Part shown: in pieces, positions 8,255-9,191 of the stretch | How the letters are laid out: every line of letters begins with the position of its first letter | Numbering within the stretch: position 1 is the first letter of the stretch | Virus record (IMG/VR): IMGVR_UViG_2529293240_000008 | Location: 1 to 16,973 of that record | DNA length: 16,973 bases | Source: a virus | Taxonomy: Duplodnaviria; Heunggongvirae; Uroviricota; Caudoviricetes | Direction: 5' to 3' (one strand) | Translations under genes and position numbers: made by a program | Notes under the pieces: generated by a model | The model's input: the letters and a program-made list of their open reading frames with translations, nothing else | What the model was told of the DNA's origin: nothing | Database searches by the model: none

Positions 8255-8320
8255 ATATTGATTCTGCAATTTCGGGACGTTACACTGTCTCTGCACCTTA
8301 TAAAGCGGGTGCCGGGATTT
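8255..8320 (+). repeat. Direct repeat copy A (~62-66 bp, one mismatch versus copy B) carrying a sigma70-like promoter
   Basis: ATATTGATTCTGCAATTTCGGGACGTTACACTGTCTCTGCACCTTATAAAGCGGGTGCCGGGATT; near-identical copy at 8911-8976. Confidence 0.9.
8259..8287 (+). promoter_or_regulatory. Sigma70-like promoter of module 1
   Basis: TTGATT (8259-8264), 17-nt spacer, TACACT (8282-8287). Confidence 0.5.
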
Positions 8321-8350
8321 GCACCCCGGAATTGTCAACGGCGATATACG

Positions 8351-8370
8351 ACGCGCCAGCGTCTTTTTTA
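8351..8370 (+). terminator. Attenuator-like intrinsic terminator in the module 1 leader
   Basis: GACGC-GCCA-GCGTC hairpin followed by TTTTTT, about 65 nt downstream of the promoter and upstream of the structured RNA. Confidence 0.45.
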
Positions 8371-8394
8371 TCGTCCGCGCTCACGCACGCCAGA

Positions 8395-8510
8395 ATTATG
8401 GTGGGCTGGGCAGGGGAGCCGAAAGGCTCGCCGGTCTCCGTTGACGCCGGTAGTGCAAACCCTGTTCAGTCCGCCACCAGCGAGATTTGCACCTCCGGTG
8501 GTGGAAGTTT
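8395..8510 (+). ncRNA. Candidate C4/CI-type antisense regulatory RNA, copy 1
   Basis: Conserved core shared with copy 2; GNRA hairpin GAGCC-GAAA-GGCTC (8417-8430); hairpin loop CTCCGTTGAC (about 8437-8446) complementary to GTCAACGGAG at the RBS of the downstream gene (8518-8527) and to GTCAACGG upstream (8335-8342). Confidence 0.45.
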
Positions 8511-8535
8511 TCCACAGTCAACGGAGGCTGCCATC

Positions 8536-8898
8536 ATGGCTACAGTCCCAACCCACTCATTCCTCAAAATTGAGACCGTCAACGGCAAGGCCGTTATTTT
8601 CTCTTTGCATGTGGCCTGCCACTTTAAGCGCATGCACCAGAACATCGTAGACAAAATCGAGTATCTGAACTGCTCGCGCGAATTTTTTACCCGCAATTTC
8701 ATACCGGGTACTTACCACATCTATGACGACTCTCTGCGTGGTTATTACATCACCCTTGATGGTCTGATGCTGCTTCAGCTTGGGTTAAGTCTGCGCACAA
8801 TGCGGTACTACGAGAGTTGCATTGAAGCGTTCCATGAGGCTGAAACCGTCCAGGTGCATTCCGCTTTCCGTCGTCATCAACGGGAGGTGCACCTATGA
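8536..8898 (+). CDS. Rha/AntA-domain phage regulatory protein (120 aa), module 1 cargo
   Basis: ATG 8536 with GGAGG 8 nt upstream. N-terminus MATVPTHSFLKIETVNGKAVIFSLHVACHFKRMHQNIVDKIEYLNCSREFFTRNF parallels the module 2 protein. Confidence 0.7.
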   Translation: MATVPTHSFLKIETVNGKAVIFSLHVACHFKRMHQNIVDKIEYLNCSREFFTRNFIPGTYHIYDDSLRGYYITLDGLMLLQLGLSLRTMRYYESCIEAFHEAETVQVHSAFRRHQREVHL

Positions 8899-8910
8899 TC
8901 CGCTACCTGA

Positions 8911-8976
8911 ATATTGATTCTGCAATTTCGGGACGTTACACTGTCTCCGCACCTTATAAAGCGGGTGCCGGGATTG
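8911..8976 (+). repeat. Direct repeat copy B carrying a sigma70-like promoter
   Basis: Same sequence as 8255-8320 with a single T/C difference. Confidence 0.9.
8915..8942 (+). promoter_or_regulatory. Sigma70-like promoter of module 2
   Basis: TTGATT, 17-nt spacer, TACACT, identical to module 1. Confidence 0.5.
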
Positions 8977-9003
8977 GCGTCCTGAAATTCAATATAGAGC
9001 ATA

Positions 9004-9025
9004 ACCGCGCTCATGCGGTTTTTTC
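9004..9025 (+). terminator. Attenuator-like intrinsic terminator in the module 2 leader
   Basis: ACCGC-GCTCAT-GCGGT hairpin followed by TTTTTT; different sequence from module 1 but the same position and architecture. Confidence 0.45.
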
Positions 9026-9050
9026 GTGTCATGAGCATTGCTACGCCCAA

Positions 9051-9146
9051 ATTATGGTGGGGCGTGCAGGGGCATCGCAAGATGCGCCGGGTTCTATGTT
9101 GACCGGTTACGCCAACCCTGTACGTCTCACCACCTCTGTGATTGGC
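9051..9146 (+). ncRNA. Candidate C4/CI-type antisense regulatory RNA, copy 2
   Basis: GNRA hairpin GCATC-GCAA-GATGC (9072-9085); loop CTATGTTGA (9094-9102) complementary to TCAACATAG at the RBS of the downstream gene (9172-9180) and, with one G-U pair, to TCAATATAG upstream (8989-8997). Confidence 0.45.
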
Positions 9147-9191
9147 GTCCCATGTGATGAGTTCTTTGAATTCAACATAGGGGCTGTCACC

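What the first reader, a model, noticed from the sequence alone, without database searches (positions are those of the whole stretch)
8255..9191. Two tandem C4/CI-type antisense-RNA control modules whose hairpin loops co-vary with the RBS of their own downstream gene
Two adjacent modules share the same architecture. Each has an identical promoter (TTGATT-N17-TACACT), then a short leader ending in an intrinsic terminator, then a structured region, then a Rha/AntA-like gene. The structured regions align at nucleotide level: ATTATGGTGGG...GCAGGGG, a GNRA-capped hairpin, a CCGG-flanked hairpin with GTTGAC in the loop, then AACCCTGT...CCACC. The differences between copies are compensatory: GAGCC-GAAA-GGCTC versus GCATC-GCAA-GATGC. 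Indels shift the conserved nucleotides between reading frames, so the conservation is at RNA level, not protein level. In module 1 the loop CTCCGTTGAC (8437-8446) is the exact complement of GTCAACGGAG (8518-8527), which overlaps the GGAGG Shine-Dalgarno of the 8536 gene; a second GTCAACGG lies upstream at 8335-8342. In module 2 the loop CTATGTTGA (9094-9102) complements TCAACATAG (9172-9180) just before the 9192 start, with a TCAATATAG copy upstream (8989-8997) that pairs with one G-U. The loop and its targets therefore changed together between modules. This is the logic of P1 c4 (antisense masking of the icd/ant RBS) and P4 CI RNA (seqB pairing to seqA and seqC); those mechanisms are established knowledge, and their application here is inference. 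Two divergent specificities in tandem inside one prophage would be unusual.
Basis: partly seen in the sequence, partly recalled or inferred. Interest (0 to 1): 0.85.

Follow-up and report, generated by a model that had tools for sequence, protein, structure and literature searches.

The report
Two tandem phage antisense-RNA immunity cassettes
A prophage carries two neighbouring copies of a well-known phage RNA switch (the P1 c4 / P4 CI type), each keyed to its own regulator gene; the switch is ordinary, and only the tandem arrangement with different keys is mildly new.

Summary
Window 8258-9755 holds two cassettes. Each has a promoter, an IsrK/seqA-type leader ending in a terminator, a C4/CI-type RNA, and a Rha-family gene. 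All four RNAs exceed Rfam gathering scores (isrK 61.8 and 61.9 bits; C4 80.1 bits twice).

There is a second (junction a'). Each has a matching copy upstream in IsrK and downstream at the ribosome site, as in P1 immI and P4 seqA/CI/seqC. Across 51 distinct modules, cognate pairing far exceeds non-cognate (z = 14-24).

One sub-claim is wrong: no indels shift the frame. The frame of the C4 5' ATG is open into both genes, and stop codons are strongly depleted across the family. This is the known P4 eta/kil layout, where an ORF is translated through the RNA locus. Pfam Phage_ASH and NCBI "ash family protein" are translations of this RNA region.

Tandem arrays recur: at least 88 complete E. coli genomes carry this pair, about 5 of 118 viral contigs have arrays, and related prophages carry one, two or three cassettes. 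I found no paper describing such arrays.

Verdict: a new member of a known kind, of modest interest.

The parts
8258..8286 (+). Module 1 promoter: -35 TTGATT 8258-8263, -10 TACACT 8281-8286
   Evidence: One of only two occurrences in the window. Nearly invariant across modules. Ends 7 nt before the isrK model start. Not called by the simple consensus scan.
8293..8369 (+). IsrK/seqA-type leader RNA 1, with a1 TTTGCAC 8318-8324 in a hairpin loop, b1 GTCAACGG 8334-8341, and an intrinsic terminator (stem 8350-8363 plus T run)
   Evidence: Rfam isrK 61.8 bits against gathering 50; fold; terminator scan; element positions.
8394..8481 (+). C4/CI-type antisense RNA 1: b' CTCCGTTGAC 8436-8445 in the hairpin loop, a' GTGCAAA 8453-8459 in the junction, 3' end CCACC
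   Evidence: Rfam C4 80.1 bits against gathering 45. MFE -50.7 kcal/mol, z = -5.27. Model R1 92.5 bits.
8486..8527 (+). Downstream targets of module 1: a2 TTTGCAC 8486-8492; b2 GTCAACGGAG 8517-8526, overlapping the GGAGG Shine-Dalgarno of ATG 8536
   Evidence: Exact complements of a' and b'. Crude duplex energy, cognate against non-cognate: -42.0 against -20.3 kcal/mol.
8536..8898 (+). Module 1 gene: 120-aa Rha-like regulator. An in-frame alternative start at the C4 ATG 8398 would give 166 aa
   Evidence: PHROG 995 5e-55; Pfam Phage_pRha 29.3 bits. Frame open from 8398.
8914..8942 (+). Module 2 promoter: -35 TTGATT 8914-8919, -10 TACACT 8937-8942
8949..9025 (+). IsrK/seqA-type leader RNA 2, with a1 TTGGCGT 8974-8980, b1 TCAATATAG 8989-8997 (one G-U against b'), and a terminator (stem 9003-9020 plus T run)
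   Evidence: Rfam isrK 61.9 bits. Weak c4-a1b1 match, 23.9 bits..
9050..9137 (+). C4/CI-type antisense RNA 2: b' CTATGTTGA 9094-9102, a' ACGCCAA 9109-9115
   Evidence: Rfam C4 80.1 bits. MFE -46.0 kcal/mol, z = -5.12. Model R1 95.0 bits.
9142..9180 (+). Downstream targets of module 2: a2 TTGGCGT 9142-9148; b2 TCAACATAG 9172-9180, next to the AGGGG ribosome site of ATG 9192
9192..9755 (+). Module 2 gene: 187-aa Rha-family regulator or antirepressor-like protein
   Evidence: Pfam Phage_pRha 5.6e-27; PHROG 821 3e-103.
8895..9755 (+). Eta-like long ORF of module 2 (286 aa). ATG 8895 overlaps the module 1 stop (ATGA) behind SD GGGAGGTG, and the ORF reads through promoter 2, IsrK-2, C4-2 and the targets into the Rha gene
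   Evidence: ORF list. Pfam Phage_ASH 3.2e-11 plus Phage_pRha. PGAP annotates the equivalent ORF in L001. Homologous layout in P4 eta. Stop depletion.
8884..8906 (+). Cassette boundary repeat GGAGGTGCaCCtATGATCCGCtAC, repeated at 9740-9763 at the start of the next gene (9752)
   Evidence: Read directly from the sequence.

Best explanation
The region holds two complete cassettes of the phage RNA immunity or anti-immunity system, known as immI c4 in P1/P7, seqA-CI-seqC with eta/kil in P4, CA RNA in N15, and IsrK-STnc1160(orf45)-anrP in Gifsy-1. They sit head to tail in the early region of a lambdoid prophage.

In each cassette a constitutive promoter starts a transcript that mostly stops at the IsrK terminator. 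Read-through transcripts carry the C4 RNA. In homologues this RNA is cut out, by RNase P at the 5' end, and accumulates. C4 exposes two short keys, loop b' and junction a'. They pair with a2/b2 on read-through mRNA, cover the Shine-Dalgarno of the Rha-family gene, and so block its translation. By the polarity seen in P1 and P4, this also favours premature transcription termination. The same two keys are repeated in the IsrK leader (a1/b1). The leader can therefore bind C4, acting either as a second operator (P4 seqA) or as a decoy that releases translation (Gifsy-1 IsrK).

The two cassettes carry different a and b keys, so each C4 should lock only its own gene.

The RNA locus also lies inside an open reading frame, as in P4 eta/kil. 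Ribosomes arriving from upstream can translate straight through the locus, which should bypass the RNA lock. For module 2 this would happen through the ATGA overlap with the module 1 gene.

Shown here: the sequence features, family membership, RNA fold covariation, key-target covariation and stop-codon depletion. Inferred from homologues: processing, translational block, polarity, decoy action and bypass by translation.
For: - Rfam hits above gathering score for isrK and C4 in both modules.
- Stable shared fold, z about -5.
- 67 distinct C4 sequences: 99.9% of cells paired, 13 pairs with changes on both sides, covariation 0.508 against 0.205 shuffled and at most 0.085 slid.
- Both keys and all four targets are exact in the window.
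- In the closest relative (L001, E. coli O121) a third cassette differs from module 1 at only 41 of 656 aligned positions. These cluster in a1, b1, b', a', a2 and b2, one compensatory IsrK stem pair, and the first codons of the gene.
- Across 51 distinct key combinations, longest Watson-Crick run, cognate against non-cognate: b'/downstream 8.45 against 4.65; b'/upstream 7.67 against 4.77; a'/downstream 7.12 against 4.31; a'/upstream 7.12 against 4.52. None of 10,000 permutations reaches the observed values.
- P4 CI and seqA are hit by the same two Rfam models, and the P4 kil start region (GGAGGCTGCCATCATGGCTACA) is homologous to the module 1 gene start.
- The Gifsy-1 compensatory mutants G28A/C162U and G31A/C159U sit at positions that correspond to a1 and a' here (PMC4825925).
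- Frame-0 stop depletion: 16 stops against 100 and 149 in the other frames; 2, 44 and 39 in the hypervariable keys alone, p = 1e-12. There is no codon periodicity. This matches the P4 eta mechanism as summarised in PMC10111431.
Against: - No expression data exist for this prophage. Processing, RNase P cleavage, the translational block and Rho-dependent polarity are inferred from P1, P4, N15 and Gifsy-1.
- The promoter hexamers are weak matches to consensus and fail the simple scan.
- The crude duplex energy for C4-2 does not separate its own downstream target from module 1's (-25.8 against -24.7 kcal/mol), and the two b targets share TCAAC. Orthogonality of b for module 2 therefore rests mainly on exact-match length and on the a element.
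- Published models disagree on the role of the upstream copy: operator in P4, activator in Gifsy-1.
- Module 1 in the window has no upstream start codon for an eta-like ORF, so the bypass idea applies only to module 2.
Confidence: 0.85

Rival explanations
1. The conserved region is simply the N-terminal 'Ash' protein domain (Pfam PF10554) of Ash-Rha fusion proteins. The apparent RNA features are by-products of coding sequence.
For: Pfam Phage_ASH hits the translations of 8239-8898 (1.1e-14) and 8895-9755 (3.2e-11). PGAP annotates 'ash family protein' ORFs over the equivalent DNA. PHROGs 995, 821 and 3960 include this stretch. Frame 0 is open in 41 of 51 distinct modules and stop-depleted.
Against: Diversity is flat across codon positions in the leader (0.26/0.25/0.23 and 0.26/0.28/0.24), whereas the adjacent Rha gene shows a coding signature (0.31/0.19/0.44). 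RNA stems keep pairing through double changes that alter the amino acids. The promoter and an intrinsic terminator lie inside the ORF. The P4 member of PF10554 is the obsolete 'cI protein' ORF lying over the CI RNA. Gifsy-1 authors report a conserved nucleotide sequence but a variable amino-acid sequence (PMC4825925).
Confidence: 0.04
2. One of the two cassettes is a decaying duplicate with no regulatory role; only one module works.
For: The module 1 gene is short (120 aa) and falls just under the Pfam Rha cut-off. Related prophages manage with one cassette (L123).
Against: Both cassettes keep the promoter, the terminator, a full-length C4 (80.1 bits each) and perfectly matched a and b targets. 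The 120-aa gene is conserved almost unchanged in many contigs and in two copies in L001. The pair is present at 80% coverage or more in 88 complete E. coli genomes.
Confidence: 0.07
3. The two modules are not independent. They form a hierarchy: once module 1 is unlocked, ribosomes finishing its gene re-initiate at the overlapping ATG 8895 and translate through IsrK-2 and C4-2. This suppresses terminator 2 and the C4-2 lock, so module 2 fires as a 286-aa fusion, by eta-like bypass.
For: There is an ATGA overlap with a strong SD (GGGAGGTG) at 8884-8898. The same 4-nt overlap joins cassettes in L001, L124 and L125. Frame 0 is stop-depleted even upstream of the C4 ATG (isrK segment 9 stops against 44 and 56; a1/b1 0 against 15 and 11). 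There is a P4 precedent: Eta translation from an upstream promoter prevents immunity-specific termination (PMC10111431).
Against: This is purely inferential here. Module 2 has its own promoter and lock, which would be redundant in a strict cascade. Cassette order is reversed in L124. The open frame could instead serve lytic transcripts coming from the early promoter.
Confidence: 0.3
4. The main output is transcription attenuation at the IsrK terminator, or at a downstream Rho site, set by C4 binding to the leader (P4-style), rather than masking of the ribosome site (P1-style).
For: Each leader ends in an intrinsic terminator directly after a1/b1. P4 CI acts on seqA and seqC to terminate transcription (PMC4825925 discussion; PMC10111431). 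A terminator-like hairpin lies inside the module 1 gene at 8581-8595.
Against: b2 overlaps the Shine-Dalgarno in both modules. In P1 and P4, termination is reported as a consequence of blocked translation (my own knowledge: Biere, Citron and Schuster 1992). The two views are therefore largely one mechanism.
Confidence: 0.3

Closest known systems
Satellite phage P4 immunity region (PLE promoter, seqA, CI RNA, seqC, nested genes eta and kil)
   Same: The same two Rfam models hit P4: C4 at 8420-8507 and isrK at 8615-8692. The order is the same: promoter, a1/b1 leader with terminator, structured RNA with b' loop and a' junction, then a2/b2 over the ribosome site. The gene start region GGAGGCTGCCATCATGGCTACA is homologous. 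The long ORF (eta) reads through the RNA locus in the same frame, with the short product (kil, 65 aa) starting after b2.
   Different: P4 has one module, controlling kil and the replication operon of a satellite. Here two modules with different keys sit in tandem in a lambdoid prophage, each controlling a Rha-family gene.
Phage P1/P7 immI operon (c4 antisense RNA, icd, ant)
   Same: This is the founding member of Rfam C4. Two keys, a' and b', are complementary to a1/b1 upstream and a2/b2 downstream, and b2 covers the ribosome site of the first gene. P1 and P7 differ in these keys, which gives heteroimmunity (my own knowledge: Citron and Schuster 1990; cited in PMC12197685).
   Different: In P1 and P7 the different specificities are in different phages. 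Here two, or three in L001, sit side by side in one prophage. The controlled genes are Rha-like, not icd/ant.
Gifsy-1 isrK-orf45(STnc1160)-anrP locus of Salmonella (PMC4825925)
   Same: A lambdoid prophage context: an IsrK sRNA ending at a terminator, a downstream structured RNA overlapping an ORF that starts at the conserved AUG, and an antirepressor-like gene. Compensatory mutations prove pairing between the middle of IsrK and the C4 region at positions equivalent to a1 and a'.
   Different: In Gifsy-1, orf45 stops at the anrP start (AUGA). Here the frame is fused to the gene, as the authors noted for S. dysenteriae. Gifsy-1 has a single module. The authors model IsrK as a trans activator.
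Phage-plasmid N15 anti-immunity system (CA RNA controlling an antirepressor)
   Same: A small processed RNA of the same type controls an antirepressor operon (cited in PMC3632133 as Ravin et al. 1999).
   Different: Not examined here. N15 has a single module.

Membership tests
Rfam RF01695 C4 antisense RNA (P1 c4 / P4 CI) | Covariance-model score above the curated gathering threshold (45 bits), full length | tested here: met
   80.1 bits, model positions 1-87 of 87, for both 8394-8481 and 9050-9137.
Rfam RF01695 C4 antisense RNA (P1 c4 / P4 CI) | Long closing stem, a tetraloop hairpin, and a GCCGG/CCGGU hairpin with a 12-13-nt loop, supported by covariation | tested here: met
   The MFE fold equals the model structure, z = -5.3 and -5.1. 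Over 67 sequences 99.9% of cells are paired and 13 pairs change on both sides. Helix 3 is invariant by construction, because the search pattern fixed it.
P1 immI / P4 immunity system | Two exposed elements (b' loop, a' junction) complementary to copies both upstream (a1, b1) and downstream (a2, b2), with b2 at the ribosome site | tested here: met
   Exact matches in both modules. The family-wide cognate against non-cognate test gives z = 14-24.
P1 immI / P4 immunity system | C4/CI is processed out of the operon transcript (RNase P at the 5' end) and acts as the immunity factor | not testable with these tools
   Only the conserved AUGG...CCACC ends are seen. Processing is known for P1 and P4 (my own knowledge: Hartmann 1995; Forti 1995) and reported for STnc1160 in Gifsy-1 (PMC4825925).
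Rfam RF01394 isrK (P4 seqA-type leader) | Score above gathering (50 bits), with two 5' hairpins and a 3' intrinsic terminator | tested here: met
   61.8 and 61.9 bits, model positions 1-77 of 77. Hairpins and terminators are predicted.
Rfam RF03163 c4-a1b1 | Score above gathering (46.7 bits) | tested here: not met
   Only module 2 gives a match, at 23.9 bits. P4 itself reaches 44.1 bits. The isrK model describes this leader better.
P4 eta/kil arrangement (ORF translated through the RNA locus) | One reading frame open from upstream of the internal promoter through leader, C4 and targets into the downstream gene, with an in-frame internal start after b2 | tested here: met
   Met for module 2 (ORF 8895-9755). 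Module 1 is open from 8398 but has no upstream start. Across the family, 41 of 51 modules have no frame-0 stop over 81 codons, against 8 and 2 in the other frames. P4 ORF 8168-8812 is in the same frame.
Pfam PF10554 Phage_ASH as a genuine protein domain | Amino-acid-level purifying selection, seen as third-position excess of variation | tested here: not met
   Codon-position diversity is flat in isrK and in a2-b2 and nearly flat in C4. The adjacent Rha gene shows 0.31/0.19/0.44.
Rha / antirepressor ('Bro network') gene as cargo | Phage_pRha domain above the Pfam cut-off | tested here: met
   Module 2: 94.6 bits against cut-off 29.9. Module 1: 29.3 bits, marginally below, but PHROG 995 at 5e-55.

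The most novel reading that the evidence does not exclude
Lambdoid prophages assemble arrays of one to three interchangeable RNA-locked regulator cassettes. The two-part keys (at least 41 b variants and 17 a variants, freely recombined) make each lock orthogonal. The cassettes are chained by ATGA-overlapping eta-like ORFs, so unlocking an upstream cassette, or lytic transcription entering from upstream, overrides the downstream locks. This would be a natural, combinatorial and hierarchical RNA logic array, and a ready-made library of orthogonal antisense regulators.
Probability: 0.3. Interest if true: 0.55.

Novelty: new member of a known kind. Interest (0 to 1): 0.35.

Why it matters
The switch itself is textbook phage biology. 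Three practical points follow from this analysis.

1. Genome annotation routinely labels this RNA locus as protein ("ash family protein", Pfam PF10554, several PHROGs). Studies that use PF10554 as a protein marker are in fact tracking an RNA immunity locus. One example uses it as a marker for P4 epsilon (PMC8628076), and another discusses Rha/Ash proteins of Stx phages (PMC8951638).

2. Related prophages differ by cassette number (1, 2 or 3), by cassette order and by key sequences. This region is therefore a fast-evolving determinant of which antirepressor-like genes fire, with possible consequences for prophage induction and cross-talk in pathogenic E. coli and Shigella.

3. The natural repertoire of matched key-target triples, always kept free of stop codons in one frame, is a compact data set for designing orthogonal antisense regulators.

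Tried and rejected
1. Pure protein reading (Ash domain). Rejected as the sole explanation: there is no codon periodicity and the RNA covariation is strong. The open frame is real, however, and is kept as part of the model.

2. Far-upstream in-frame extensions, such as the window ORF 7324-8898 (524 aa) and L018 (800 aa). These look like chance antisense ORFs with low-complexity translations. They were dropped.

3. The third GTCAACGG at 8578, inside the module 1 gene, as an extra target. It is also present in the O121 cassette whose loop is different, so it is probably just the VNG codons.

4. A census of tandem arrays using a junction query. The count of 202 genomes is inflated, because the tool joins the cassette's own promoter with the gene end as one place. 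I therefore cite only the 88 genomes, as a lower bound.

5. RNAduplex on whole segments as an orthogonality measure. It separates cognate from non-cognate for C4-1 and for both leaders, but not for C4-2 against the downstream targets. It is too crude because stem nucleotides are allowed to pair.

6. Literature searches for tandem C4/isrK arrays found none. The term 'immI' matched 'immigrant' and wasted one search. The Forti et al. 1999 P4 eta/kil paper is not held, so I rely on the summary in PMC10111431.

7. The whole window is not present as one piece in any complete E. coli genome. The left 4.2 kb is an IS-rich block that matches a large plasmid.
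Full report
**What is there.** The window reads as the early region of a lambdoid prophage. A CI-like S24 repressor lies at 5089-5784 (-). A Rha or antirepressor-like gene lies at 6602-7375. A divergent Gp49/HigB-like toxin with an HTH antitoxin lies at 7590-8217 (-). The two modules of the finding follow. After them come an O-like initiator (9966-10880), a DnaC-like ATPase (10882-11769) and a DnaB helicase (11766-13157).

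isrK matches at 8293-8369 (61.8 bits) and 8949-9025 (61.9 bits). C4 matches at 8394-8481 and 9050-9137 (80.1 bits each, full length).

**Checking the observation.**
- TTGATT-N17-TACACT occurs only at 8258 and 8914.
- Both leaders end in hairpin-plus-T-run terminators.
- The two modules align without a single gap over 321 nt at 82% identity.
- Both C4 sequences fold into the model structure, at -50.7 and -46.0 kcal/mol, with z about -5.
- The loop and target complements are exact. Module 1 coordinates are off by one (loop 8436-8445, target 8517-8526, upstream copy 8334-8341). Module 2 coordinates are correct.

The single-stranded junction after the loop hairpin is GTGCAAA at 8453-8459 in module 1 and ACGCCAA at 9109-9115 in module 2. 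It is complementary to TTTGCAC at 8318 and 8486, and to TTGGCGT at 8974 and 9142. Each module therefore has the complete a1-b1 / b'-a' / a2-b2 layout of the P1 immI operon and of P4 seqA-CI-seqC.

**Is the covariation more than chance?** I collected 120 viral contigs with a C4-core pattern (two were false positives) and aligned 67 distinct C4 sequences. The structure is paired in 99.9% of cells, and 13 pairs show changes on both sides. The covariation score is 0.508, against 0.205 for shuffles and at most 0.085 for slid partners. Helix 3 is invariant because the search pattern fixed it.

A covariance model and nhmmer both find 129 C4 copies. These give 51 distinct key combinations, built from 41 b' loops and 17 a' junctions that assort freely. 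The longest Watson-Crick run of a key with its own module's targets far exceeds that with other modules' targets:

| Key / target | Cognate | Non-cognate | z |
|---|---|---|---|
| b' / downstream | 8.45 | 4.65 | 24 |
| b' / upstream | 7.67 | 4.77 | 21 |
| a' / downstream | 7.12 | 4.31 | 14.5 |
| a' / upstream | 7.12 | 4.52 | 15 |

None of 10,000 permutations reaches the observed means.

The sharpest single case is in the closest relative, E. coli O121 NZ_CP119441 (L001, 99.6% identical over the finding). It carries three cassettes with a 656-nt period. Its first and second cassettes differ at only 41 of 656 ungapped positions. These fall in a1, b1, b', a', a2 and b2, in one compensatory pair of the IsrK 5' stem, and in the first codons of the gene.

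**The reading-frame question.** This is not so.
- The ATG at the C4 5' end (8398; 9054) is 46 codons upstream of, and in frame with, the gene ATG (8536; 9192), with no stop between them.
- Module 2's frame is open back to ATG 8895. That ATG overlaps the stop of the module 1 gene (ATGA) behind a strong SD.
- PGAP annotates such ORFs as "ash family protein", and Pfam PF10554 hits their translation.

Across the 51 distinct modules, this frame carries 16 stops over 81 codons, against 100 and 149 in the other two frames. Forty-one modules have none, against 8 and 2. In the hypervariable keys alone the counts are 2, 44 and 39 (p = 1e-12).

Yet diversity is flat across codon positions in the leader, while the adjacent Rha gene shows the usual third-position excess. 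The sequence therefore evolves as RNA but is kept translatable.

This is already explained by P4. The same Rfam models hit P4 CI and seqA. PF10554 hits the obsolete P4 "cI protein" ORF and not epsilon. P4 ORF 8168-8812 (eta) reads through seqA and CI in the same frame, and its last 65 codons (kil) start just after b2. PMC10111431 summarises the mechanism. [quoted passage not shown] Kil is made on read-through. Full Eta is made only from an upstream promoter, and its translation prevents termination. In Gifsy-1 the equivalent orf45 is translated and coupled to anrP (PMC4825925).

**How it most likely works.** Each cassette is an autonomous RNA lock on a Rha-family regulator.
- The promoter fires constitutively.
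- Most transcripts end as IsrK.
- Read-through transcripts yield C4, which pairs through b' and a' with b2 and a2.
- This pairing covers the Shine-Dalgarno and silences the gene. Transcriptional polarity is a probable consequence.
- IsrK carries a1 and b1 and can bind C4, as a second operator or as a decoy.

The keys differ between the two cassettes at both elements, so cross-repression should be weak. Crude duplex energies agree for C4-1 and for both leaders, but are uninformative for C4-2 against the downstream targets. All steps beyond the sequence features are inferred from P1, P4, N15 and Gifsy-1.

**How unusual is the tandem arrangement?**
- At least 88 of 5,426 complete E. coli genomes carry this pair at 80% coverage or more.
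- About 5 of 118 viral contigs have two C4 within 1 kb, always with different b' loops and sometimes sharing a'.
- Close relatives have one cassette (L123), three (L001), or two in the opposite order (L124) or with other keys (L125).
- Cassettes are joined by 4-nt ATGA overlaps. In the window they are bounded by a repeat, GGAGGTGC.CC.ATGATCCGC (8884-8906 and 9740-9763).

I found no paper that describes such arrays. Barquist et al. 2013 already noted IsrK-C4 systems in lambdoid prophages.

**Verdict.** The finding is correct in substance and belongs to a well-characterised family. The tandem, differently keyed array and its copy-number polymorphism are a modest addition. The most novel reading still open is a translationally chained hierarchy of orthogonal RNA locks.

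Noticed in passing
window 8239-8535 and 8895-9191; L122 (P4) 8168-8584: Pfam PF10554 (Phage_ASH), NCBI 'ash family protein' and PHROGs 995, 821 and 3960 are translations of the isrK-C4 RNA locus. In P4 the family hits the obsolete 'cI gene product' ORF over the CI RNA, while epsilon matches PF25738. One paper used PF10554 as a marker for epsilon (PMC8628076).
   Followed up: yes
window 669-782 and 1460-1535: Rfam group II intron pieces (D1-D4-2 at 81.8 bits; domain V/VI at 57.8 bits) lie only about 870 nt apart, with no reverse-transcriptase ORF between them and no annotation in the matching plasmid record. This may be an ORF-less or degraded intron.
   Followed up: partly
window 1-4182: An IS-rich block is 99.8% identical to a 261-kb plasmid of E. 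coli FDAARGOS_944. It contains the end of ISSfl3, an arylsulfatase fragment, a TacA/GNAT toxin-antitoxin pair at 1655-2412, an IS4 fragment, and IS600 at 2980-4136. The prophage is truncated on this side, and the window as a whole is not found in one piece in any complete E. coli genome.
   Followed up: partly
window 7590-8217 (-): A Gp49/HigB-like toxin and HTH antitoxin pair, transcribed divergently, abuts the module 1 promoter with about a 40-bp gap. In the O121 relative the same position holds a BRO-N gene plus a third RNA cassette.
   Followed up: partly
window 7324-8898 (+): A 524-aa ORF appears in the mechanical ORF list. It results from the stop-free frame of module 1 running on, antisense, through the toxin-antitoxin genes, and is not a gene.
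   Followed up: yes
window 8578-8595: A third GTCAACGG copy (8578) and a terminator-like hairpin (8581-8595, followed by ATTTTCTCTT) lie inside the module 1 coding sequence. The GTCAACGG is also present in the O121 cassette with a different loop, so it is probably coding sequence only.
   Followed up: partly
window 14279-14586: Four tandem tRNA genes lie downstream of a Q-like antiterminator region, as in the related O121 and CFSAN029787 prophages, where they are annotated Ile, Arg, Thr and Gly.
   Followed up: no
L037 8490-8582; L125 3295-3387; L029 9392-9484, compared with window modules: The a and b keys recombine independently. The window module 2 loop (GTTCTATGTTGA) occurs elsewhere with a different a' (ATTTCCA), and the module 1 loop occurs with a' TACGCCAA. 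In each case a1 and a2 are switched to match.
   Followed up: yes
L072, L025, L049, L010 (viral contigs): Several modules are followed by P4 kil-like sequences ([23 protein letters not shown]...), so the sample mixes P4-like satellites with lambdoid prophages.
   Followed up: no
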